Below, in pieces: positions 21,214 through 38,135 of a DNA stretch of 38,655 nucleotides; the stretch's first letter is position 1, and each line of letters opens with the position of its first letter. The notes below the pieces were generated by a model. The model saw only the letters and a list, made by a program, of their open reading frames with translations. It searched no databases and had not been told where the DNA came from. Position numbers and translations under genes: made by a program. The stretch lies in IMG/VR virus record IMGVR_UViG_3300011145_000002, positions 1 to 38,655 of that record. One strand, given 5' to 3'. The DNA is from a virus.

Positions 21214-24200
21214 TTATCCTCTGCTAATTGCTTTCTTAATCGCGCCACCCTGTCTTAACTCTCTGTTAATAACAGAAACAACAGCTGTTTCGATCATGCT
21301 TCCGAATTGCTTCATATCACCTTGATTATCAGTTTTGGTGGAGCCATCAGACTGTATCACAATTGTTTGCGTGAAATTTATACCACCACTATTCTGATTA
21401 GCCAAATAGTTCTTCAAATCAGCATTGGTTCTACTATCAACAACACGTTCACCTTTATCCAAAAGCCATGTACCTTCTTTCGGGATATTGTCGATACCGT
21501 CGTGGGCCATGCCGGCAATGGTTTGGCCGGCGATTAGGCCGACGTTAGCGTAGCCCATTGCTAGCATTGCTTTAGAAGCTGCAATTTTGGCACCAAAGAA
21601 AGGGATTGTTGCATCAGCGGCCACCTGTGTGGCGGCTAAATGTGTGCTTACCAAAGCCGAACCAATGGCAAACATTTGCTGCATTAAGAACATGGCCTTA
21701 TAAGCACCTGATTGCTCTCCCGCACTGTCCTTAACCGCCTGAGTCATCTGCGACCAAGTATTTTGTGCTTGGCCTAAAAGATTACCCCATAAACTCAACT
21801 GACTTTCGTACTGAGTTTTTGCTAGATCTTGCTCCTGTTTGCTGTACGCCTCAGATAGTGCAGCCTTATTTTGCAGATAAACTTCATAAGCCTGTTCGAG
21901 CTGTTGATACTTTTCAGTATCGGTAGTGTATTCATCATTCTGAATACCCTCCCGCGCAGAATAAAGGTTGTCTGCAAGTTGAGAATAACCATCTTGCTGC
22001 TCATTACCCAGCTGCCATCTTTGATACTCCTCTGGTTTCATGGACGCCCTAGCGCTGGCTTCCACCCCCATCTGAACCATGGCACCCAAAGGCCCATTCA
22101 TCATGGAAAAAGCATTTTGACGAGCTAGAATAATTTGCTGATTTGCCTCATTCTCAGCTTTTACACGATCATCCTGAGCCTTAATCCAATTAGCCACATC
22201 ATCTTCATAGGCCTTCTGTTGAAGTCCTAAAAGACGGTCGCGCTCTGTTGGATCAGTAGCAAAAGCCTTTTCGATCTCCTTGATTCTTTCTTGGTTATCG
22301 TATTCAAGATTTTGCCATTCGTTGTAGTAACTGACTTGAATGGCTTTTCTGGTTTCGGTCAACTCCTTTTCGAGTTTTTCCTGCTCAGCAATGGTCTGCT
22401 CGAATTCCTTCAACCAGTCATCAAAAGAATAATCTTCTGTGAATGAAACACCGCTTGAGCCACCTAAATAACCCTTGATGTTTTTCACATATTGGCGATT
22501 TACTGGGCCAATATTCGTACCACGCTGAACATTGCCCTCACCAGCATGGTAGGCGCTCACAGCCTTATCGAGATCCCCTTTGAATAAATCAAGAAGATAG
22601 GCCATGTACTTGCCAGCACCCTCGGCTGATTGCGCTAAATTATAGCGATCCTTCACGCCATACTGCTTTGCTGTGCCTTCAAGAAACTGGAATCCGCCGG
22701 CAGCACCAGAGCTTTTATTGTAAGCATTTGGGTTTCCTCTAGATTCCTGCATATGAATAGCAGATAACAACCCAGAAGGAAGTTTGTTTTTAGCTTCAAT
22801 TGCAGCAAAGTTATACTTGGCCGCATTGGCTGCAACTTTGGCATTCACCTTCATAGCATTGCCAGTAGCTTCAAGTAATTTTTTGCTCTTTTCCTCCGCC
22901 TTGTTGCGCTCATCGACAGCATTTTTAGAACGCATGATGGCTTGATATTCTTCGCGAAGCTTGGCCTTCAATTCATCCTTTAAAACCTTTTGACCTTTCG
23001 CATTGGTAACAATCGCACCCTCAACATTAAGGTACTTTTTAGCCAGCTCGATCATGGTGTCGTTATAGCCGCGACTTGCTAGAGCAGAAGTAATTGCTGA
23101 GTCTTTGATTGTTTGGTTTGCTTCACTAAGAAGTTTTCTAATCTCTGCGCTGAGATTTGCAGTTTCAATAGCGGTCTGCTTAGCCTGATCCCCCACACCC
23201 TTGACAGCTGGGGCCATCTGATCCACAAAAGATTTTTGGTTTTTAAATTCATTACCAGCATCTTTTACAGACCCACCTAAAGTATTGAATCGATCCTTAG
23301 AAGTCTGGCTAATAAAGTTTAATGCGTTAATTTTTCCTGAGAATTGATCAATATCACCGGTTTTCTTATATTCAGAAATTAAGGCATTCACCTGCTTTGA
23401 TTGCTCAGATGTCATGTCATTGTGACGACTGAATGAGTAGGTGGCGGTGATTAGTTTTGAATTAACTTCATCGTATTCCTTGGCTAGATCCTGAAGAGTA
23501 TTCTTTTCAGAAACAAGCTGCGCACGACGTTTGACCTCATCAAGCTCCTTATATTTCTTGATTGCATCGTCAACAGACTCATTATTTTCTCTTAATGATT
23601 TAGTGGACTCATCAGCACCATCTCTCATCATTAAGTAGCCAGCCGCTACAGAAGCCACAGTAATGCCTAGCCCCACCCATCCGCCTGTCAATCCAAGCAA
23701 GAGCGCCTTAGCTGCTGCAAGTCGGCTTGTGGCTACAGTTGCTGCACCTGTAGCTGCCGTATAGGCAGTTGTTGCCATAGAAGCTTGTTTTTCAGAAATA
23801 GCTAAAGCAATGTTTGCTGCTGTTAATCGCTGTGTTGCTGCCGCGCGAGCTGCTGCTGTAGTGGCATTATTAAAGTCTGCACGAGCTAGATTCACCTCGG
23901 TTAAAGCTAAGGCCACGTTTTGGCGCGCTCTTTGCGCCTGAACGCCAAGTAGTTTTACGCTTTCAGCCTGCTCAGCTACTAAAGCCTGCTTTTGCTCTAT
24001 GCTTGCAGCAACTGTTTTTTGAATACTACTAATCATGCTGGATGCATATCTTCCAGCAAATATAGCGCCTACCACCAAAGCTATATCGCCAACCGTATCT
24101 AGGTTATCCCCTAGGGTTTCCAGTGACTCACTAGCTCCATCAACACCGGCTTTAATCGCATCACCAATTCCTGATTGTGATACTTTTAGAAATAATCCAT

Positions 24201-24903
24201 CAATTGTATCTTCAAGGTTCGCAATAGACCCATCTAGGGTTTTCATGCGGTTTTCCATAGCACCAACGAAGTCCACATTGCCTAGATCAAGAAGGTATTT
24301 TTCAATCTCTTTGGCATTATTTCTAATGGTGGTGGTTTGGCCCTTAAACGTCAGCGACACTTTGCCATTTTCTTGACTGGCCTTGATTCCAAATTCTTTT
24401 AATCGCTCAAACTCACCCGTAGTGGCATCAGCAACCGCCTCAATCATTTGATCGAGATCTTTACCCATGGCAGCAGCAGTATTGCCGTATGACATTAGTG
24501 CGGCTTCAGATGGTTTTAACCCCAAGTTTGTAAGCTTAATAAAGGCACCTACAGACTGCTCAAGCCCATAAGGGGTTTCTTTAGCGAATTTCTGCAAAGA
24601 ATCAAATGCTGCTGCCGCGCCTTCTGCTGACCCGGTTGCTGTTATTAACCCTGCATTCAGCTTATCAAAAGTGCGTTGAGTATTGATCAGTCGGTCGATA
24701 GAGACATAGGATGCAGCAACCCCTGCCAATGAAAGCCCAATATTCTTTGCTGACATGGAAATACCTTTATCAGCCTCCTCGAAATCGCGCGCCATATTGC
24801 TTGCTGAAGTCTTAGTCTGTCTTTCGGCATTCTTCATTGGCTCAACAAATTGGCCGATACGAGCAATTAAATCCAATGTTAAAACACCTAACTTGCCAGC
24901 CAT
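21214..24903 (-). CDS. Tail tape measure protein with an embedded lytic transglycosylase (SLT) domain
   Basis: 1229 aa, Ala-rich and helical, with transmembrane-like GLTGGWVGLGITVASVAAGYL. The SLT motif LLSAIHMQESRGNPNAYNKSSGAAGGFQF lies at about 22504..22821. Confidence 0.9.
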   Translation of the reverse strand: MAGKLGVLTLDLIARIGQFVEPMKNAERQTKTSASNMARDFEEADKGISMSAKNIGLSLAGVAASYVSIDRLINTQRTFDKLNAGLITATGSAEGAAAAFDSLQKFAKETPYGLEQSVGAFIKLTNLGLKPSEAALMSYGNTAAAMGKDLDQMIEAVADATTGEFERLKEFGIKASQENGKVSLTFKGQTTTIRNNAKEIEKYLLDLGNVDFVGAMENRMKTLDGSIANLEDTIDGLFLKVSQSGIGDAIKAGVDGASESLETLGDNLDTVGDIALVVGAIFAGRYASSMISSIQKTVAASIEQKQALVAEQAESVKLLGVQAQRARQNVALALTEVNLARADFNNATTAAARAAATQRLTAANIALAISEKQASMATTAYTAATGAATVATSRLAAAKALLLGLTGGWVGLGITVASVAAGYLMMRDGADESTKSLRENNESVDDAIKKYKELDEVKRRAQLVSEKNTLQDLAKEYDEVNSKLITATYSFSRHNDMTSEQSKQVNALISEYKKTGDIDQFSGKINALNFISQTSKDRFNTLGGSVKDAGNEFKNQKSFVDQMAPAVKGVGDQAKQTAIETANLSAEIRKLLSEANQTIKDSAITSALASRGYNDTMIELAKKYLNVEGAIVTNAKGQKVLKDELKAKLREEYQAIMRSKNAVDERNKAEEKSKKLLEATGNAMKVNAKVAANAAKYNFAAIEAKNKLPSGLLSAIHMQESRGNPNAYNKSSGAAGGFQFLEGTAKQYGVKDRYNLAQSAEGAGKYMAYLLDLFKGDLDKAVSAYHAGEGNVQRGTNIGPVNRQYVKNIKGYLGGSSGVSFTEDYSFDDWLKEFEQTIAEQEKLEKELTETRKAIQVSYYNEWQNLEYDNQERIKEIEKAFATDPTERDRLLGLQQKAYEDDVANWIKAQDDRVKAENEANQQIILARQNAFSMMNGPLGAMVQMGVEASARASMKPEEYQRWQLGNEQQDGYSQLADNLYSAREGIQNDEYTTDTEKYQQLEQAYEVYLQNKAALSEAYSKQEQDLAKTQYESQLSLWGNLLGQAQNTWSQMTQAVKDSAGEQSGAYKAMFLMQQMFAIGSALVSTHLAATQVAADATIPFFGAKIAASKAMLAMGYANVGLIAGQTIAGMAHDGIDNIPKEGTWLLDKGERVVDSRTNADLKNYLANQNSGGINFTQTIVIQSDGSTKTDNQGDMKQFGSMIETAVVSVINRELRQGGAIKKAISRG

Positions 24904-24921
24904 AACTTTTCCTCTAGGCGT

Positions 24922-24944
24922 AAAAAAACCGCCTAGTGGCGGTT
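24922..24944 (-). terminator. Strong intrinsic terminator closing the exonuclease-lipoprotein cassette, just upstream of the tape-measure start
   Basis: aaccgcc-tagt-ggcggtt followed on the minus strand by 7 U. Confidence 0.8.
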
Positions 24945-24959
24945 ATTGATTTTGAGACT

Positions 24960-25280
24960 TTACGAGCAATTTGCTTGCCCTAAATCTATCCATTTGTTTG
25001 TAGAGACAAGTGCCTGAATGTCTATAACCTTGACTGTAACCTTGTAAATATTCAGCGCATTTAATTCTTGGCAAACATATTGTGCCAATCCATCTCTACC
25101 TGATCCATTGTCTACAACTCCAACCTTAAACATGGAGCTGGACGTCCAAACAGCATCTTTTATTGTCTTATCAACTTTGAAATGGGCTACAGCTTGCTGT
25201 TTTTTTTCTTCAGATATTTTTGGTTGATTAGAGCATCCAGCTACCCCTGCCACCAAAGCAAATAAAATAAATTTTTTCAT
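24960..25280 (-). CDS. Lipoprotein (106 aa)
   Basis: MKKFILFALVAGVAG|CSN is a signal peptide plus lipobox. The ATG at 25280 follows GAGGGA, one nt after the upstream stop. Confidence 0.75.
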   Translation of the reverse strand: MKKFILFALVAGVAGCSNQPKISEEKKQQAVAHFKVDKTIKDAVWTSSSMFKVGVVDNGSGRDGLAQYVCQELNALNIYKVTVKVIDIQALVSTNKWIDLGQANCS

Positions 25281-25281
25281 T

Positions 25282-26157
25282 TTAATTTCCCTCAACCATA
25301 TAAAAGAAATCTTCCTCAGAAATGACTACAATATCCTGGCCTTTTTTAATCAAAGCTAATGCTTTTTCTTCTTTCGCACTAATGCTTTTCCCTTTTAATT
25401 TTGTGAGATCTTGGAGTCCAGTTACCAAATAATTTGTTTTCTTAGTAACACCCTTTCCAACATCAAACCCAAGCTGGGATGCCTTTATGCTCGCCTCAAC
25501 ACGCGGCATTTTTAACTCACCCGTAAAACAAAGAACATCACCAAACCACTCACCATCAGGATTGCCACCCTCAATAACCACATGGGCAGGATTTGGGTTT
25601 TCCGACATCTCCCCATATGCAATTAATGTTGATATTTTTCTGCGTATTAAAGATCGACAGTCATCCAATTTTAATTGCTTGGCGTTTAGGGCACATATTA
25701 GAACCCTGCCAGCAGCAATAGCATCCGCCAAAGCATCATGATGTTTGTCAATTTTTATATCATTCAATCTGCATACATTTGCAAGCCCATATCCACTATA
25801 CGCAACCTGCTCCCATGTTCGTCTAACAACCTTGGTAATGTCTAACCAGCTATAATCAATTTGAGGGAAATTCTTTTCAAGAGCCACTTTATCGAAGCCT
25901 GAATAAATAGCAACAACGTTGACGCCAATAAGCTGATCTAATCTTGACTTAACTTCAGCTATTACTGGGGCACCTCGAACATCTTCTTCCGTAATTCCAT
26001 GTATCGCGCTATTCATAAAGTCAAAATGTGACTGAGGGTTTATCAAGGAGCTCCATGTTTCAATCAGATCGCCACCCTTAAAAACAGCTATCCCAATCTG
26101 ACATATTGACTTTGGGTCTGAATTTGCAGTTTCCACATCCAAGGCTACAAAATCCAT
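25282..26157 (-). CDS. DnaQ-like DEDDh 3'-5' exonuclease fused to a C-terminal BRCT-like domain (291 aa)
   Basis: ExoI is FVALDVETAN, ExoII is YSGFDKVAL and ExoIII is HHDALADAIAAG. The C-terminus GDVLCFTGELKMPRVEASIKASQLGFDVGKGVTKKTNYLVTG resembles the ligase-type BRCT domain. Confidence 0.8.
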   Translation of the reverse strand: MDFVALDVETANSDPKSICQIGIAVFKGGDLIETWSSLINPQSHFDFMNSAIHGITEEDVRGAPVIAEVKSRLDQLIGVNVVAIYSGFDKVALEKNFPQIDYSWLDITKVVRRTWEQVAYSGYGLANVCRLNDIKIDKHHDALADAIAAGRVLICALNAKQLKLDDCRSLIRRKISTLIAYGEMSENPNPAHVVIEGGNPDGEWFGDVLCFTGELKMPRVEASIKASQLGFDVGKGVTKKTNYLVTGLQDLTKLKGKSISAKEEKALALIKKGQDIVVISEEDFFYMVEGN

Positions 26158-26233
26158 TTCTCTATCCTAGTTTTATAATCTAGGACAAGATACTAATTAT
26201 TAGGTGAAAAAGAAACCAATCTAAATTGATTTC

Positions 26234-26850
26234 TTATTTCCCAAAATTCTCCACCAGATAATCCTCAAGATTCTTTTCTACTGGTTTTTCTTCATGAGTC
26301 ATCAAGTCATGCAACTTCACATTTTTAACGCCTTTCAGCATTAAAATAGACTGGTGAATTCTTGCTAGCTCTTGCTCGAATCTTCTTCCGAGGTTGAGGC
26401 TTCCGTATTTTCGGATGTAGGCGGTGTACTTTTTGATTTCCCTGTATGGGAGGTCTGCGATTTCGCTGTATGTTTTGCCGAGCGCGATACTGATTTCGAT
26501 GAGGATTTCGTCGTCTTGGTTGAGTTCAATTGCTTTCCCAATACGTTAATATCCACAATTTTTGACCAAAGCGCATCTACTAAGGCTTGGTTAAAATGGG
26601 TGCGGATTTCATCTTCAGTGAATGCGAGTTGTCCTTTCTCATCACAAATAACGCTTGCCAAAACACCAGCTAAAGCCTCTTTGTTTTCGCCATAGGCCTT
26701 CATTTGGGCTACTGCTGTGCTGTAGCTGAATGGCAGAATATAGGTGTCAAACTCCGCGTCTTCACCACTTACTTTAATTTGAACTGTCACATGCTCCGGC
26801 TTACCCATTAGTGCGCCAGACTTAATGTCTTTTAAAGTTAATTTTTTCAT
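26234..26850 (-). CDS. Tail assembly chaperone -1 frameshift fusion (lambda GT analogue, about 205 aa)
   Basis: The -1 frame is open from 26545 to the stop at 26234..26236. After the slip it reads ...LGK/AIELNQDDEILIEISIALGKTYSEIADLPYREIKKYTAYIRKYGSLN..., which is T-domain-like. Confidence 0.7.
26365..26850 (-). CDS. Tail assembly chaperone (lambda G analogue), zero-frame product
   Basis: Lies between the tube and tape-measure genes and contains the slippery heptamer. The zero-frame tail is Ser/Lys/Thr-rich. Confidence 0.75.
   Translation of the reverse strand: MKKLTLKDIKSGALMGKPEHVTVQIKVSGEDAEFDTYILPFSYSTAVAQMKAYGENKEALAGVLASVICDEKGQLAFTEDEIRTHFNQALVDALWSKIVDINVLGKQLNSTKTTKSSSKSVSRSAKHTAKSQTSHTGKSKSTPPTSENTEASTSEEDSSKS
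26533..26539 (-). promoter_or_regulatory. Programmed -1 ribosomal frameshift slippery heptamer G_GGA_AAG
   Basis: The minus strand reads TTG GGA AAG CAA in the G frame. This heptamer is identical to the lambda G/GT slip site. Confidence 0.7.
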
Positions 26851-26860
26851 GATTCACCAG

Positions 26861-26888
26861 AAAGAATAAAGCCCCAATACAGGGGCTT
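26861..26888 (-). terminator. Intrinsic terminator after the tail tube gene
   Basis: aagcccc-aataca-ggggctt followed on the minus strand by TTTATTCTTT. Confidence 0.7.
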
Positions 26889-26892
26889 TGGA

Positions 26893-27357
26893 TTAAACAG
26901 TTGCTGGAGTTAGAGTCACACCAGTTGAACGCTGTAAAGTGAACTGGTAGCCCACAATGGAATCCGCTTCAAATGTTGGCACTGCTGGAGTTAATGCGCC
27001 TTTAAATGACCAGAATGAACGGCCAGTTGGTAGAGCTACAGCATTTGTAGCTACTGTTGGCGGAGCCACTGAATCACTCGCACCAATATAAAATTCAAGT
27101 TCGGTGCGATTTTCTGCCCATTGAATAAGCTTTAGGTGTGAGTCGTTTTCTGGATCAAGTCGAATTGAAAGTGAGCCATCACCCGGATCAGATAGCCCCG
27201 GCATATAGGATTTGGATTTCGTTTCTTCAAGACAGGTTGTTTCAATTTTTGAAGTACTGTCACTTCCCAAGTCGATACCGGTTACACAGACAAGTTGCGT
27301 AATGTCGGTACCATCAAAAGCAAAGACGTTTGTCCCTTGCGTGCGTAATTCTGCCAT
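26893..27357 (-). CDS. Major tail (tube) protein
   Basis: Assigned by position (after the tail terminator and before the chaperone) and size. The ATG at 27357 has GAGGAG 9 nt upstream, whereas the longer ORF start at 27384 abuts a terminator U tract. Confidence 0.7.
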   Translation of the reverse strand: MAELRTQGTNVFAFDGTDITQLVCVTGIDLGSDSTSKIETTCLEETKSKSYMPGLSDPGDGSLSIRLDPENDSHLKLIQWAENRTELEFYIGASDSVAPPTVATNAVALPTGRSFWSFKGALTPAVPTFEADSIVGYQFTLQRSTGVTLTPATV

Positions 27358-27384
27358 TTGCGAGTGCTCCTCAATTTTAGGCAT

Positions 27385-27408
27385 AAAAAAAGCACCCGGT
27401 TGGGTGCT
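27385..27408 (-). terminator. Hairpin plus U tract immediately upstream of the tube gene
   Basis: agcaccc-ggtt-gggtgct followed on the minus strand by 6 U. Confidence 0.6.
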
Positions 27409-27424
27409 ATGTGGAAAATTCTAT

Positions 27425-27799
27425 TTATCGATCTACAAACCAATTCGAATCAAAACCGGTTCGATACATCTTGCTGTCTGGATCACGCTCATTACCTCGC
27501 AGACCAGTTACAGTGCAAGAGTTATCAAGCTCAAAAGCTCTACGAACCGCTTCACGAATATTTCGCAGGTCATCCGCTTTTGTTGTGTAAATATCAACTT
27601 GGATTGTGATGTGATCTATATTTGCCGGACAATCTAAATGATTTTGCGGAATACCAGAGATATCCTGCCAGACCAGGTACGGCGGCTTTGGTTTATCTGG
27701 TGCAAGACCAAATTCAAATGCACGTAAAATCCCGCCAGATTCCAGATAAGACTTAACTTCATCACTCGCATTAAGTAATGGGAAAATAGGTGCTGTCAT
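27425..27799 (-). CDS. Tail terminator / tail completion protein (DUF3168-like)
   Basis: Position directly upstream of the tube gene, and the N-terminus MTAPIFPLLNASDEVKSYL is typical of this family. Confidence 0.55.
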   Translation of the reverse strand: MTAPIFPLLNASDEVKSYLESGGILRAFEFGLAPDKPKPPYLVWQDISGIPQNHLDCPANIDHITIQVDIYTTKADDLRNIREAVRRAFELDNSCTVTGLRGNERDPDSKMYRTGFDSNWFVDR

Positions 27800-37130: not shown

Positions 37131-38135
37131 ATGAACAACCCTACTAATATACTCACCCCAAGACTCATGCTTAAGACGGGTTATTATGAAGTTGCTCTAG
37201 AACTTGATGAAACTGATTTACTTTTTGGCTTATTCCACCCAGCGAAAAACCATCTAGCCACCCTATTTAATGACATGCTTTTACATTATGTTGATGAAAC
37301 CTCAAATCTTCCATCTAGATGCGAACATAATTTCAGCAAATTCTTATTTCGAGGGCAAGAATCCTCAGTTTGGAGCCTCACGCCTTCACTTTTCCGAGAA
37401 CTAAATGATGAGAATGCTTGGATAAAACGGGAAATAAATTCCTTAATTGATTTCACCCAAATTGCTGATTTATGCAATATTCAAATACCATCAGATTCTT
37501 GTACTTTAAGAGAAACTCTTCATTCCCAACTAGAACTTAAATCATTATTAAATACTACTAACTGGGTTACCTCGGATATTTATGAAATCATGGGATTTGC
37601 TCAGCACTATGGCTTGTCTACACGACTTTTAGATTGGTCTCATCACCCACTTGTCGCACTATATTTCGCAAGCATTAGTTTATTGCTACCCCAGTCAAAA
37701 CAACATGCATTGCCATCCCAACCACAGCAAGATGGCTATTTTTCATTATGGATACTAAATCAAGATCATTTAATTGATTACTCTATAGATATCACTATTA
37801 TAGAAACCCCTAAGTCTTTAAATAAAAATATATCCAATCAATATGGATGCTTCTCAAGTGTTAAGCAATTTCCTACTGAAAATACACCAAGAACTCAAAG
37901 CATATATCAAAAAATAAATAAACCTTTTACTCCCCAAAAGAGACTAATAACTGATGAGTTAAATCAAAAGAAAAAGGACTTTTTATTATTAAAAATCAAC
38001 ATCCCCTACAAGTCTGCTATAGATGTTTTTAGATACTGTGACTTTATGGGATTTAATGCTGCCAAACTATTCAACAATGAATATGGTCTGCAAAAATACA
38101 TAAAAGAGTACTCTCTTCTAAAAAAAAGCCCTTAA
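37131..38135 (+). CDS. FRG-domain protein (334 aa), an AT-rich opposite-strand moron
   Basis: KFLFRGQESSVWSLTPSLFRE (the FRG motif) and TRLLDWSHHPLVALYFAS (the second conserved FRG-domain block). Confidence 0.75.
   Translation: MNNPTNILTPRLMLKTGYYEVALELDETDLLFGLFHPAKNHLATLFNDMLLHYVDETSNLPSRCEHNFSKFLFRGQESSVWSLTPSLFRELNDENAWIKREINSLIDFTQIADLCNIQIPSDSCTLRETLHSQLELKSLLNTTNWVTSDIYEIMGFAQHYGLSTRLLDWSHHPLVALYFASISLLLPQSKQHALPSQPQQDGYFSLWILNQDHLIDYSIDITIIETPKSLNKNISNQYGCFSSVKQFPTENTPRTQSIYQKINKPFTPQKRLITDELNQKKKDFLLLKINIPYKSAIDVFRYCDFMGFNAAKLFNNEYGLQKYIKEYSLLKKSP

What the first reader, a model, noticed from the sequence alone, without database searches (positions are those of the whole stretch)
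24922..26233. AT-rich two-gene cassette (DEDDh exonuclease-BRCT fusion plus lipoprotein) inserted between the GT tail chaperone and the tape-measure gene
In lambda-like tail modules, the frameshifted chaperone genes are followed directly by the tape-measure gene. Here about 1.3 kb is inserted.

- Gene 25282..26157 carries all three DnaQ/DEDDh motifs (ALDVETAN, YSGFDKVAL, HHDALADAIAAG), fused to a BRCT-like C-terminus.
- One nt after its stop starts a 106-aa lipoprotein (LVAGVAG|C).
- The insert is visibly AT-richer than the flanking tail genes.
- It is preceded by a 76-bp spacer holding a promoter-like TTAGAT-16-TAATAA (26197..26224) and a 6-bp inverted repeat.
- It ends in a strong terminator (24922..24944) right before the tape-measure start.

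This is the signature of a moron expressed on its own, probably in the lysogen, rather than a virion part. A lipoprotein in a tail module recalls the Cor/Llp receptor-masking exclusion proteins. A BRCT-bearing exonuclease coupled to it matches no named defence or anti-defence system that I can recall. I consider it the best candidate here for a new prophage-encoded exclusion/defence pair, or alternatively an enzyme that degrades nucleic acids or signalling nucleotides for anti-defence.
Basis: partly seen in the sequence, partly recalled or inferred. Interest (0 to 1): 0.75.

Follow-up and report, generated by a model that had tools for sequence, protein, structure and literature searches.

The report
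Prophage cargo cassette before tape-measure gene
A temperate Acinetobacter phage carries two swappable accessory genes, a DNA-end-directed exonuclease and a small exported lipoprotein, at the classic "moron" site between its tail chaperone and tape-measure genes; they most likely protect the lysogen from other phages, but they are separate modules and not a proven pair.

Summary
A 1.3-kb, AT-richer cassette lies between the frameshifted GT tail chaperone and the tape-measure gene. It encodes a DEDDh exonuclease fused to a LigA/RFC1-type BRCT domain, then a 106-aa lipoprotein one nucleotide later, then a strong terminator.

Sixteen relatives whose chaperone is 83-97% identical all carry different cargo here, and none has the exonuclease. 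The site is a cargo hotspot, and it is the position of the first moron ever described (HK97 gene 15).

The two genes are separable:
- The same lipoprotein follows a membrane-anchored HIRAN protein in close relatives.
- The exonuclease is followed by four other exported or membrane proteins in other phages.
- Elsewhere the exonuclease sits directly after the CI repressor (Moraxella, S. aureus phiNM3) or after the repressor module (pneumococcal prophage).

The exonuclease is not unnamed. It belongs to PHROG 192. It also matches both ends of PADLOC's untested candidate PDC-S48, but lacks that profile's central part.

Lysogen expression and an anti-phage role are inferred from position, not shown. 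This is a new variant of a known kind, of moderate interest.

The parts
26365..26850 (-). Tail assembly chaperone G. It is the upstream anchor of the hotspot.
   Evidence: Pfam Phage_TAC_13 6.5e-23. Sixteen IMG/VR relatives are 83-97% identical.
26533..26539 (-). Slippery heptamer GGGAAAG for the -1 frameshift that makes GT. The T frame runs on to the TAA at 26236-26234.
   Evidence: Reading of the sequence and three-frame translation.
26207..26233 (-). Conserved hairpin (9-bp stem 26233-26225 / 26220-26212, loop TTAG) plus a T run 26211-26207, directly after the GT stop. It looks like a terminator or attenuator and belongs to the conserved backbone, not to the cargo.
   Evidence: 100% of cells paired in 9 relatives, 3 pairs with compensatory changes, 0 of 500 shuffles reach the score. 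Energy -11.8 kcal/mol.
26196..26225 (-). Promoter-like site (TTTAGA-18-AATAAT). It mostly lies in backbone sequence shared with relatives that carry other cargo.
   Evidence: 9 of 12 matches, not above chance: 3 sites found against 5.2 expected. Conservation of this stretch is shown.
26165..26185 (-). 6-bp inverted repeat TCCTAG / CTAGGA. It lies at the start of the cargo-specific sequence and overlaps the ribosome-binding site of the exonuclease gene.
   Evidence: Sequence. Homology with several relatives ends at 26171-26187.
25633..26157 (-). Slot A cargo, N-terminal part: DEDDh (DnaQ/ExoX-like) 3'-5' exonuclease domain, residues 1 to about 175.
   Evidence: Pfam RNase_T 9.3e-16. D7, E9, D89, H140 and D145 invariant. 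AlphaFold2 pLDDT 90. Foldseek match to ExoX 4fzx, E 1.4e-10, TM 0.87.
25282..25545 (-). Slot A cargo, C-terminal part: LigA/RFC1-type BRCT domain, residues about 205-291, plus the stop codon.
   Evidence: Pfam BRCT in 22 of 28 homologues, best 6.1e-7, but only 0.057 in this sequence. LigA BRCT 1l7b 1.5e-3. RFC1 BRCT 2ebu and 2k7f at 28-31% identity. PDC-S48 profile positions 335-402, E 5.5e-8.
24960..25280 (-). Slot B cargo: 106-aa lipoprotein. It has a lipobox VAG|C with Cys16 and a mature alpha/beta domain with two invariant cysteines, C70 and C105.
   Evidence: Sequence. PHROG 7191 6e-21. Alignment A2. AlphaFold2 pLDDT 93-98 for the mature part. 661 cluster representatives in the 1.84-billion-protein library and no Pfam family.
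24920..24944 (-). Intrinsic terminator AACCGCC-ACTA-GGCGGTT plus a T run. It is the right-hand conserved flank of the hotspot, 17-41 nt before the tape-measure start.
   Evidence: Terminator scan. It is conserved in relatives with other cargo, and L028 and L037 have a different stem with the same T tract. Homology resumes at 24930-24955.
21214..24903 (-). Tape-measure protein, 1229 aa, with an internal SLT lytic transglycosylase domain. It is the downstream anchor of the hotspot.
   Evidence: Pfam TMP_3 2.6e-11 and SLT 8.1e-17.

Best explanation
The region is a moron-type cargo cassette in a recombination hotspot of a temperate Acinetobacter siphophage. The hotspot lies between the GT tail chaperone and the tape-measure gene and has conserved flanks. 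On the left is the GT stop with a hairpin and a T run. On the right is a GC-rich terminator and the tape-measure ribosome-binding site.

Between the flanks there are two independent slots.

- Slot B, next to the tape-measure gene, almost always holds a small exported protein of one of many families. Here it is a 106-aa lipoprotein, probably anchored in the outer membrane.
- Slot A is optional. Here it holds a catalytically intact DEDDh 3'-5' exonuclease tethered to a LigA/RFC1-type BRCT domain.

Shown: the anatomy, the domain identities, the presence/absence polymorphism and the modularity.

Inferred:
1. The cassette is transcribed in the lysogen.
2. The BRCT domain brings the exonuclease to 5'-phosphorylated DNA ends, nicks or gaps, where it degrades the adjacent 3' strand.
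3. The targets are the free ends or replication intermediates of incoming phage DNA, so the enzyme acts as a cytoplasmic superinfection-exclusion or defence factor.
4. The lipoprotein acts separately at the envelope.
For: Hotspot:
- In 16 relatives with 83-97% identical chaperones, the gap between chaperone and tape-measure gene is 646-2736 bp where both genes lie on the contig (12 loci) and holds cargo in all 16. None holds the exonuclease.
- All 16 end with a protein bearing a lipobox or signal peptide.
- Homology breaks sharply at 26171-26235 and resumes at 24930-24955.
- HK97 gene 15, the first moron, occupies the same position and is a prophage-expressed exclusion protein (PMC3594210).

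Modularity:
- The lipoprotein module starts exactly at its ATG, 25280, in L026 and L029, where a TM-HIRAN protein precedes it.
- The A. radioresistens copy keeps the exonuclease but swaps the exported protein after position 25255.
- All five protein families found after the exonuclease also occur after TM-HIRAN proteins.

Lysogen link:
- Exonuclease-BRCT homologues lie -1 to 16 nt downstream of CI (HTH plus S24) repressors in Moraxella Mcat9 and M. bovis prophages, S. aureus phiNM3 and several IMG/VR lineages.
- In a pneumococcal prophage the gene follows the repressor and ImmA-like protease, just before the integrase.
- 24 of 80 IMG/VR loci have a CI-like gene within 150 nt, and 32 of 80 within 1.5 kb.
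- Members of the exported family also sit directly after a CI repressor (L060), after a short CI-like HTH protein (L069), or after other HTH regulators (L062, L074).
- The window itself encodes an integrase, CI and CII.

Enzyme:
- The DEDDh residues are invariant.
- The fold is ExoX-like.
- The BRCT domain resembles the DNA-binding BRCT domains of LigA and RFC1.

Defence link:
- Both ends match PADLOC candidate PDC-S48.
- One homologue lies in an island beside TerB, a BrxC-like ATPase and a helicase.
- Prophage DEDDh exonucleases with variable auxiliary domains have been shown to defend against phages (TONDO preprint).
Against: - There is no expression or phenotype evidence of any kind.
- The promoter call is no better than chance.
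- PDC-S48 is an untested candidate, and this protein lacks about 160 central profile positions.
- The validated TONDO enzymes act on RNA phages. The two Acinetobacter candidates in that study did not protect E. coli from MS2. Their relation to this protein is unknown because the accessions are masked.
- The substrate, DNA or RNA, is inferred only from fold and BRCT type.
- Some homologues lie in chromosomal contexts with no phage or defence signature.
- Linkage to CI fits a role in induction or repair just as well.
Confidence: 0.5

Rival explanations
1. The exonuclease-BRCT protein and the lipoprotein form one obligate two-gene exclusion or defence system. In a modified form, a cytoplasmic DNA-end binder works together with a periplasmic partner at the site of DNA injection.
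For: - The genes are 1 nt apart. Equally tight spacing (-4 to +2 nt) to an exported protein recurs in other exonuclease lineages: L106/L107, L108, L145, L146.
- The exported family follows DNA-end-binding proteins of three architectures. These are DEDDh-BRCT here, TM-HIRAN in L026, L029 and L085, and BRCT proteins in Pasteurellaceae prophages (PHL101 ORF34, L098, and L089 with TM and WYL).
- One TONDO exonuclease needs an adjacent small ORF to work.
Against: - Each gene occurs mostly without the other. No other locus among 53 with the exported family has a DEDDh neighbour.
- Only 4 of 80 loci with ORF34-like BRCT proteins, and 4 of 30 with TM-HIRAN proteins, carry the exported family.
- Moraxella copies of the exonuclease have no partner from this family.
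- Slot B is filled even when slot A is empty.
- A lipoprotein with Ser at +2 should sit in the outer membrane, which is an inference, so it cannot touch a cytoplasmic enzyme.
- About a quarter of exonuclease lineages have an exported neighbour. I estimate that this is roughly the chance expectation for two neighbouring genes.
Confidence: 0.15
2. The exonuclease-BRCT protein is a lysogeny, induction or DNA-repair factor and not an anti-phage factor. Expressed with the repressor, it processes nicks or 3' ends. It would either trim the ssDNA that activates RecA, or widen nicks into gaps. Either way it would tune prophage induction or improve host survival of DNA damage.
For: - It is repeatedly placed in or beside CI operons of the RecA-cleavable S24 type, in both Gram-negative and Gram-positive phages.
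- Its closest solved structure is ExoX, a repair exonuclease.
- NCBIfam's nearest model is a Pol III epsilon-like family, at 144 bits and below the cut-off of 373.
- Homologues occur in chromosomal, non-prophage contexts.
Against: - In Acinetobacter phages the gene lies in the tail-operon hotspot, far from cI. There it alternates with a membrane-anchored HIRAN protein and shares that protein's downstream partners. A repair or induction role does not explain this easily.
- It is absent from close relatives, so it is dispensable for lysogeny.
Confidence: 0.2
3. It is a TONDO-like RNA exonuclease that protects the lysogen from RNA phages or trims phage transcripts. The BRCT domain would be its 'auxiliary domain'.
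For: TONDOs are prophage- and plasmid-borne DEDDh enzymes with variable auxiliary domains or adjacent genes. Pfam also gives a weaker match to a 3'-5' exoribonuclease family, Rv2179c-like, at 1.7e-6.
Against: - Similarity to the one TONDO I could retrieve, vB_VpaM_MAR gp09, is only 34% over 86 residues.
- The best fold matches are DNA exonucleases.
- The BRCT domain is of the DNA-binding LigA/RFC1 type.
- The Acinetobacter candidates in that study did not protect E. coli.
Confidence: 0.1
4. It is an anti-defence enzyme made during infection. It would degrade signalling oligonucleotides, or the cDNA products of retrons or defence reverse transcriptases.
For: DEDD enzymes can degrade short linear oligonucleotides, and a DEDD dinuclease family is associated with genomic islands and defence systems. 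The gene lies in a late operon, so it would also be made during lytic growth.
Against: - A DEDDh exonuclease needs a free 3' end, so it cannot open cyclic signals. This rests on established enzymology.
- Its recurrent co-orientation with, and position directly after, repressor genes points to expression in the lysogen and not early in infection.
- It is flanked by a hairpin and a terminator, like a moron.
Confidence: 0.06

Closest known systems
HK97 gene 15 moron (Juhala et al. 2000; Cumby et al. 2012; reviewed in PMC3594210)
   Same: [quoted passage not shown] Morons as a class are described as additions absent from relatives, with a different G+C content and their own promoter and terminator; gene 15 was the first. 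HK97 gp15 is expressed from the prophage and excludes superinfecting phages at DNA entry.
   Different: gp15 is a single small inner-membrane protein of the YebO family. Here there are two unrelated genes, a cytoplasmic exonuclease-BRCT protein and an exported lipoprotein, in a two-slot hotspot. No function has been tested.
PADLOC phage defence candidate PDC-S48 (model PDLC05027)
   Same: It has an N-terminal DEDDh domain (profile positions 6-171, whole-protein E 4.7e-30) and a C-terminal BRCT domain (positions 335-402, E 5.5e-8) in the same order.
   Different: About 160 central profile positions are missing: 291 aa against a 411-position profile. PDC systems are untested candidates found by 'guilt by embedding'. 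No paper in the library mentions PDC-S48.
PHROG 192 and S. aureus phiNM3 gp05 ('DNA polymerase exonuclease subunit', EXOIII plus LIG domains)
   Same: It is a full-length match, PHROG 192 at 4e-43 over residues 1-288. S. aureus phage homologues are 26-30% identical; those of the phage 47/PVL group align over the full length and phiNM3 gp05 over residues 2-250. In phiNM3 the gene follows the CI-like repressor by 16 nt, and a lipoprotein gene lies further down the same operon before the integrase gene.
   Different: It is in a different host phylum and a different genomic slot, the tail operon instead of the immunity operon. I found no experimental function for the staphylococcal gene either.
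TONDO exonucleases (ISG20-like bacterial DEDDh defence enzymes; bioRxiv 10.64898/2026.06.30.735675)
   Same: They are DEDDh exonucleases carried by prophages and other mobile elements, with a variable auxiliary domain or an adjacent small gene.
   Different: Validated TONDOs trim the 3' UTRs of RNA phages. The sequence relation is weak, 34% over 86 aa to vB_VpaM_MAR gp09. No BRCT domain is described in that study.
E. coli exonuclease X (PDB 4fzx)
   Same: It is the best structural match of the nuclease domain (E 1.4e-10, target TM 0.87) and it has the DEDDh catalytic set.
   Different: ExoX is a housekeeping repair enzyme. My own knowledge is that its C-terminal part is not a BRCT domain. Here the tail is a LigA/RFC1-type BRCT domain and the gene is phage cargo.
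Cor, T5 Llp and TP-J34 Ltp exclusion lipoproteins
   Same: They are small phage-encoded lipoproteins. Llp and Cor mask receptors. From my own knowledge, the Ltp literature reports the tape-measure protein of the incoming phage as Ltp's target.
   Different: There is no sequence or fold similarity. The lipoprotein does not co-vary with the tape-measure or distal tail modules. Its function is unknown.

Membership tests
Moron (Hendrix/Juhala sense) | Extra DNA that is present in one phage and absent from the same position in close relatives | tested here: met
   None of 16 relatives with 83-97% identical chaperones has the exonuclease, and 2 of 16 have the lipoprotein. The breakpoints are sharp.
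Moron (Hendrix/Juhala sense) | Base composition different from the flanking genes | tested here: met
   38.0% against 44% G+C, the 5th percentile of sliding windows.
Moron (Hendrix/Juhala sense) | Own terminator | tested here: met
   A 7-bp GC-rich stem plus a T run at 24944-24920. It belongs to the conserved flank shared by relatives with other cargo.
Moron (Hendrix/Juhala sense) | Own promoter | tested here: inconclusive
   There is a 9-of-12 sigma-70-like site, but 3 sites were found against 5.2 expected by chance. Its -35 overlaps a conserved hairpin.
Moron (Hendrix/Juhala sense) | Expression from the repressed prophage | not testable with these tools
   This is inferred only from homologues placed directly after repressor genes.
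DEDDh (DnaQ-like) 3'-5' exonucleases | Exo I (DxE), Exo II (D) and Exo III (H-x4-D) motifs | tested here: met
   D7, E9, D89, H140 and D145 are invariant in 28 homologues. Pfam RNase_T 9.3e-16.
DEDDh (DnaQ-like) 3'-5' exonucleases | RNase H-like exonuclease fold | tested here: met
   AlphaFold2 pLDDT 90. Matches to ExoX, S. aureus DinG, Pol III epsilon and the CRISPR-associated DnaQ domain at E 1e-10 to 1e-7.
DEDDh (DnaQ-like) 3'-5' exonucleases | 3'-5' exonuclease activity and substrate | not testable with these tools
   This needs purified protein.
BRCT domain (LigA/RFC1 DNA-binding type) | A significant profile match | tested here: met
   This sequence scores only E 0.057. However, 22 of 28 family members match Pfam BRCT, best 6.1e-7. 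The LigA BRCT 1l7b scores 1.5e-3.
BRCT domain (LigA/RFC1 DNA-binding type) | The fold, and the T/S-G ... K phosphate-pocket residues | tested here: met
   Foldseek matches RFC1 BRCT 2ebu, 2k7f and 7u19 at 28-31% identity. T212, G213, K240 and T241 are invariant. That they form a phosphate pocket is an inference from known BRCT structures.
PADLOC PDC-S48 | A match along the whole profile (same architecture) | tested here: not met
   Only positions 6-171 and 335-402 of 411 are matched, and the central part is absent.
PADLOC PDC-S48 | Embedded in, or next to, known defence systems | tested here: inconclusive
   One homologue lies beside TerB, a BrxC-like ATPase and a helicase in a mobile island. 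Two others lie in neutral chromosomal contexts. The window has no such neighbours.
TONDO defence exonucleases | A close sequence relation to a validated member | tested here: inconclusive
   Only vB_VpaM_MAR gp09 could be retrieved: 34% over 86 aa, E 7e-8. The accessions of the other members are masked in the held supplement.
TONDO defence exonucleases | Nuclease-dependent protection against RNA phages | not testable with these tools
   Candidates N and O from Acinetobacter did not protect E. coli. Whether they are the same protein family as this one is unknown.
Cor/Llp-type receptor-masking lipoproteins | Lipoprotein signal peptide | tested here: met
   LVAGVAG|C with Cys16.
Cor/Llp-type receptor-masking lipoproteins | Sequence or fold similarity to Cor, Llp or Ltp | tested here: not met
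   No Pfam family matches. The best PDB match is an uncharacterised Parabacteroides protein, E 7e-3. The best viral match is an unnamed lipoprotein.
Cor/Llp-type receptor-masking lipoproteins | Linkage to the phage's own receptor-binding module | tested here: not met
   An identical lipoprotein occurs with different tape-measure and distal tail genes in L005/L016 and L015. The receptor-binding gene itself was not identified.

The most novel reading that the evidence does not exclude
Exonuclease-BRCT and membrane-anchored HIRAN proteins are alternative effectors of one unrecognised class of prophage superinfection-exclusion module. The module would recognise the free ends of incoming linear phage DNA: the 5'-phosphate through BRCT, or the 3'-OH through HIRAN. 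It would destroy or trap that DNA at, or just after, injection. A rapidly exchanged small periplasmic partner, encoded immediately downstream, would supply an envelope-level layer or specificity. Such a module would be spread across Gram-negative and Gram-positive temperate phages, usually in the repressor operon.
Probability: 0.2. Interest if true: 0.75.

Novelty: new variant of a known kind. Interest (0 to 1): 0.5.

Why it matters
The exonuclease-BRCT gene is not a curiosity of a single phage. Homologues occur in at least 133 IMG/VR contigs and 69 GenBank phage records. These include S. aureus phiNM3, phi12 and PVL phages, pneumococcal prophages, Moraxella and Pasteurella elements, and phage satellites. 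The gene typically sits beside the repressor, yet I found no experimental function for it.

If it proves to be a defence gene, it would explain a conserved 'mystery gene' in the immunity regions of clinically important prophages. It would also add a DNA-end-recognition principle, through BRCT and HIRAN domains, to the ways cells tell invading DNA from their own.

Independently of function, the chaperone/tape-measure junction of these Acinetobacter phages is a well-delimited two-slot hotspot with conserved flanks. That makes it a practical place to mine for new exclusion genes and to insert cargo.

If the cassette has no anti-phage effect, it remains an ordinary moron at the textbook moron site.

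Tried and rejected
- A DNA-level search of GenBank phages with 24000-27500 found only tape-measure similarity of 66-70%, so there are no close relatives there. Relatives had to be found through proteins.
- Literature searches for 'PDC-S48' and for 'BRCT domain' plus 'anti-phage' returned nothing. 'BRCT, exonuclease, prophage, defense' gave only irrelevant mentions. The Cumby 2012 paper is not held, so I used its review instead.
- Fold searches for the lipoprotein against the PDB and against viral models gave nothing informative. I therefore dropped Cor, Llp and Ltp homology.
- I considered that the lipoprotein might inhibit the SLT lysozyme domain of the adjacent tape-measure protein, by analogy with T4 Sp. 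I did not adopt this, because the identical lipoprotein occurs before a tape-measure protein for which no SLT domain is recorded (L005/L016).
- I tested whether the exported family is generally paired with DEDDh, BRCT or HIRAN proteins. There were no DEDDh neighbours in 53 loci. In the reverse direction only 4 of 80 and 4 of 30 loci were positive. An obligate pair is rejected, and only a weaker association remains.
- A count of exported neighbours of exonuclease homologues was not clearly above my rough estimate of the chance rate.
- Rfam found no RNA family anywhere in the window.
- The virion-part reading is rejected because the cassette is absent from close relatives.
Full report
**1. What is in the sequence**

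All genes here are on the minus strand. The order is as follows:
- tail tube gene, 26893-27384
- tail chaperone G, 26365-26850
- a 291-aa ORF, 25282-26157
- a 106-aa ORF, 24960-25280
- the 1229-aa tape-measure gene, 21214-24903, which contains an SLT domain

The chaperone has the lambda-type slippery heptamer GGGAAAG at 26539-26533. The -1 frame stays open to the TAA at 26236-26234, so GT is real and the insert begins at 26233.

The exonuclease stop (TAA, 25284-25282) and the lipoprotein ATG (25280) are separated by one base. The lipoprotein begins MKKFILFALVAGVAG|C.

A 7-bp GC-rich hairpin with a T run lies at 24944-24920, 17 nt before the tape-measure ATG.

The cassette is 38.0% G+C and the flanking structural genes are 44%. 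That puts it in the 5th percentile of equal-sized windows.

The window is a complete temperate phage. It encodes an integrase, a CI repressor (HTH plus S24), CII, an antirepressor and a lysozyme. The host is probably Acinetobacter, because the nearest named homologues come from A. radioresistens and A. lwoffii.

**2. Identity of the two proteins**

The first protein is a DEDDh exonuclease.
- Pfam RNase_T scores 9.3e-16.
- D7, E9, D89, H140 and D145 are invariant across 28 homologues of 46-100% identity.
- The AlphaFold2 model is confident, with pLDDT 90.
- Its nuclease domain superposes best on E. coli ExoX (E 1.4e-10, TM 0.87). S. aureus DinG, Pol III epsilon and PolC follow.

Its C-terminus is a BRCT domain.
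- In this sequence alone Pfam gives only E 0.057.
- However, 22 of 28 homologues match, the best at 6.1e-7.
- The LigA BRCT domain is found by sequence, and the RFC1 BRCT domain by fold at 28-31% identity.
- The conserved string FTG...R...KKT.YLV.G is, from my own knowledge of NAD-dependent ligases, the LigA-type signature.
- T212, G213 and K240 correspond to the phosphate pocket of BRCT domains. This last point is an inference.

The second protein has a lipobox and a confidently modelled alpha/beta domain of about 80 residues with two invariant cysteines. It has no Pfam family and no informative structural neighbour. Its domain family has 661 cluster representatives in a library of 1.84 billion proteins.

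**3. The junction is a cargo hotspot**

Sixteen IMG/VR contigs encode a chaperone 83-97% identical to this one.
- Where both genes lie on the contig (12 loci), the distance from chaperone to tape-measure gene is 646-2736 bp. The stretch holds cargo in all 16.
- None has the exonuclease.
- In all 16 the last gene before the tape-measure gene encodes a small protein with a lipobox or signal peptide. These proteins belong to many unrelated families.
- Some also carry an Arc-like repressor on the opposite strand together with KilA-N or antirepressor-like genes.

Homology with the window stops between 26171 and 26235 and resumes between 24930 and 24955. The GT stop region and the terminator are therefore conserved flanks, and the cargo is exchanged between them.

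This is the position of HK97 gene 15. That was the first element ever called a moron, and it encodes a prophage-expressed superinfection-exclusion protein (PMC3594210).

**4. The left flank and the 'promoter'**

Directly after the GT stop lies a 9-bp hairpin (26233-26212) followed by TTTTT.
- In nine relatives every cell pairs.
- Three pairs carry compensatory changes.
- None of 500 shuffles reaches the observed score.

The sigma-70-like site is no better than chance: 3 sites were found against 5.2 expected. Most of it lies in backbone sequence shared by relatives with other cargo. A promoter may still lie between the T run and the cargo, but I cannot show one.

Late transcription must pass this hairpin and the strong terminator to reach the tape-measure gene. 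That fits antiterminated late transcription, which is an inference.

**5. The two genes are separable modules**

- The identical pair occurs on 13-14 contigs, always at this site. On some of them the tape-measure and distal tail genes differ.
- In L026 and L029 the lipoprotein (82% identical) starts at the same ATG. There it is preceded by a 205-aa protein with an N-terminal membrane helix and a HIRAN domain. In L085 the partner is a 170-aa homologue, with HIRAN at 8.2e-7, above Pfam's cut-off.
- The A. radioresistens copy of the exonuclease (88%) is followed by an unrelated 150-aa secreted protein. The A. baumannii copy (56%) is followed by a 183-aa secreted protein.
- All five protein families that follow the exonuclease somewhere also follow TM-HIRAN proteins. 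Four are exported (the 106-aa family, the 150-aa family, the 183-aa family and a 123-aa lipoprotein). The fifth, of 136 aa, ends in a predicted membrane helix. Identities range from 34% to 98%.
- Almost every TM-HIRAN gene sits after a tail chaperone and 0-13 nt before a small exported protein.

I therefore describe the hotspot as two slots. Slot A is optional and holds the exonuclease-BRCT protein, a TM-HIRAN protein or other genes. Slot B holds an exported protein and is nearly always filled.

**6. Where else the exonuclease-BRCT gene is found**

The family is large.
- 944 proteins score E<=1e-5.
- 69 GenBank phage records contain it.
- 133 IMG/VR stretches encode it.

In several phages it lies directly after the CI repressor on the same strand, with a gap of -1 to 16 nt:
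- Moraxella phage Mcat9
- M. bovis prophages
- S. aureus phiNM3, where gp06 (CI) is followed by gp05, and a lipoprotein gene and the integrase gene lie further downstream
- several metagenomic lineages

In a pneumococcal prophage it follows the repressor and an ImmA-like protease, just before the integrase gene.

With a CI profile that I built from 11 sequences, 24 of 80 IMG/VR loci have a CI-like gene within 150 nt. Seven of these are upstream and co-directional, and 17 are convergent. Eight more loci have one within 1.5 kb.

Other lineages, in other genera, carry the gene at the chaperone/tape-measure site (L138, L145/L146, L153/L155/L156). It also occurs in satellites (Pasteurella Pmp8, Streptococcus Javan542).

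Among chromosomal copies, one lies in an island beside TerB, a BrxC-like ATPase and a helicase. Two lie in uninformative contexts.

**7. Where else the exported protein is found**

- Directly after a CI repressor with HTH and S24 domains (L060), after a short CI-like HTH protein (L069), or after other HTH regulators (L062, L074).
- Directly before a tape-measure gene (L085, L086).
- In Pasteurellaceae prophages, directly after BRCT proteins. In PHL101 this is ORF34, which is annotated 'DNA ligase' and follows CI. In L098 it is a homologue 40% identical to ORF34. In L089 it is a protein with a membrane segment, a WYL domain and a BRCT domain.

This recurrence next to DNA-end-binding domains is more than I would expect by chance. 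It is still a minority pattern. Only 4 of 80 loci with ORF34-like BRCT proteins, and 4 of 30 loci with TM-HIRAN proteins, carry this family. No other locus has a DEDDh neighbour.

**8. Most likely mechanism**

Shown: a catalytically intact DEDDh nuclease is fused to a LigA/RFC1-type BRCT domain. It lies in an exchangeable cassette bounded by a hairpin and a terminator. Its homologues lie in immunity operons.

Inferred:
- The cassette is transcribed in the lysogen.
- The BRCT domain anchors the enzyme at 5'-phosphorylated ends, nicks or gaps. This is based on what is known of the RFC1 and LigA BRCT domains.
- The nuclease degrades the neighbouring 3' strand.
- The natural target is the DNA of superinfecting phages, which enters as a linear molecule with free ends.

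The alternation with a membrane-anchored HIRAN domain supports a role at or near DNA entry. In eukaryotic HLTF, the HIRAN domain binds 3'-OH DNA ends; this is my own knowledge.

The lipoprotein has Ser at position +2. By the E. coli sorting rule it should therefore sit in the outer membrane, which is an inference. It would act separately at the envelope.

I put about 0.5 on this whole picture. Taken apart:
- about 0.9 on the anatomy and the hotspot
- about 0.4-0.5 on an anti-phage role for the exonuclease
- about 0.15 on an obligate pair

**9. Comparison with what is known**

- The site and the logic are those of HK97 gp15.
- The protein belongs to PHROG 192.
- It matches both ends of PADLOC's PDC-S48 model but lacks about 160 central positions. 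PDC entries are untested candidates.
- NCBIfam's PRK06195 ('Pol III epsilon') is matched below its cut-off, at 144 against 373 bits.
- A 2026 preprint shows that prophage DEDDh exonucleases with variable auxiliary parts (TONDOs) defend against RNA phages. The one member I could compare is only distantly related, and the Acinetobacter candidates in that study were inactive in E. coli.
- I found no paper that assigns a function to this family.

**10. Verdict**

The 'moron' reading is well supported by comparison with relatives. The 'novel coupled pair with no catalogued relative' reading is not supported.

This is a new variant of a known kind: a moron cassette at the textbook moron site. It carries a widespread but uncharacterised exonuclease-BRCT gene that a defence catalogue has already flagged as a candidate in a longer form.

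What is new from this analysis:
- the two-slot structure of the hotspot
- the interchange of exonuclease-BRCT and TM-HIRAN proteins
- the cross-phylum linkage of the exonuclease to repressor genes

Interest is moderate, at 0.5.

Noticed in passing
window 26207-26233 (minus strand): A conserved 9-bp hairpin plus a T run lies directly after the GT stop codon. It has compensatory base changes across relatives (100% paired, 3 covarying pairs, 0 of 500 shuffles). It is probably an attenuator or terminator inside the tail operon.
   Followed up: yes
L026:6689-7306, L029:1534-2151, L085:3480-3992, and about 25 further lineages in L267-L296: A family of small proteins with an N-terminal membrane helix and a HIRAN domain occupies the same slot as the exonuclease in related phages. 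These genes lie after a tail chaperone and 0-13 nt before a small exported protein. I know of no described phage function for membrane-anchored HIRAN proteins.
   Followed up: partly
L027, L030, L031, L034, L036 (hotspot); L019:5363-6948: In other relatives the same hotspot carries an Arc-like ribbon-helix-helix gene on the opposite strand. Beside it are KilA-N or antirepressor-like genes, and in A. baumannii also a HicB-like gene. This is reminiscent of the P22 immI region. The KilA-N protein weakly matches PADLOC PDC-S22.
   Followed up: partly
window 37131-38135 (plus strand): A 334-aa FRG-domain protein (Pfam 9.8e-19) is encoded on the strand opposite to the neighbouring genes near one end of the window. 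It may be another accessory gene.
   Followed up: no
window 26868-26889 (minus strand): A terminator-like hairpin (8 pairs, 5 of them GC) lies between the tail tube gene and the chaperone gene. It may set the ratio of tube protein to chaperone.
   Followed up: no
L003:3264-3782 (Mannheimia phage PHL101 ORF34); L205-L266: PHL101 ORF34 is annotated 'DNA ligase', but it is a 172-aa protein with only a BRCT domain (Pfam 1.2e-7) and an N-terminal part that aligns with a WYL-domain region of L089. Homologues about 34% identical are very common in P2-like prophages, next to an Ogr-like zinc-finger gene.
   Followed up: partly
P0034 and P0047: NCBI names two exonuclease-BRCT homologues, from A. baumannii and Moraxella bovoculi, 'transposase'. 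This looks like a misannotation.
   Followed up: no
window 21214-24903, residues 699-794: The tape-measure protein contains an SLT lytic transglycosylase domain. The tape-measure protein that follows the same cassette in L005/L016 has no SLT domain on record.
   Followed up: partly
slot-B proteins in L039, L271, L277, L283, L286, L288, L294 and L279, and after the exonuclease in L106: Many of the small exported proteins in this hotspot share a loose N-terminal motif: a Cys, then about 6-8 residues, then A-x3-(M/V)-x2-(R/K)-Q. They may form one divergent periplasmic superfamily.
   Followed up: no
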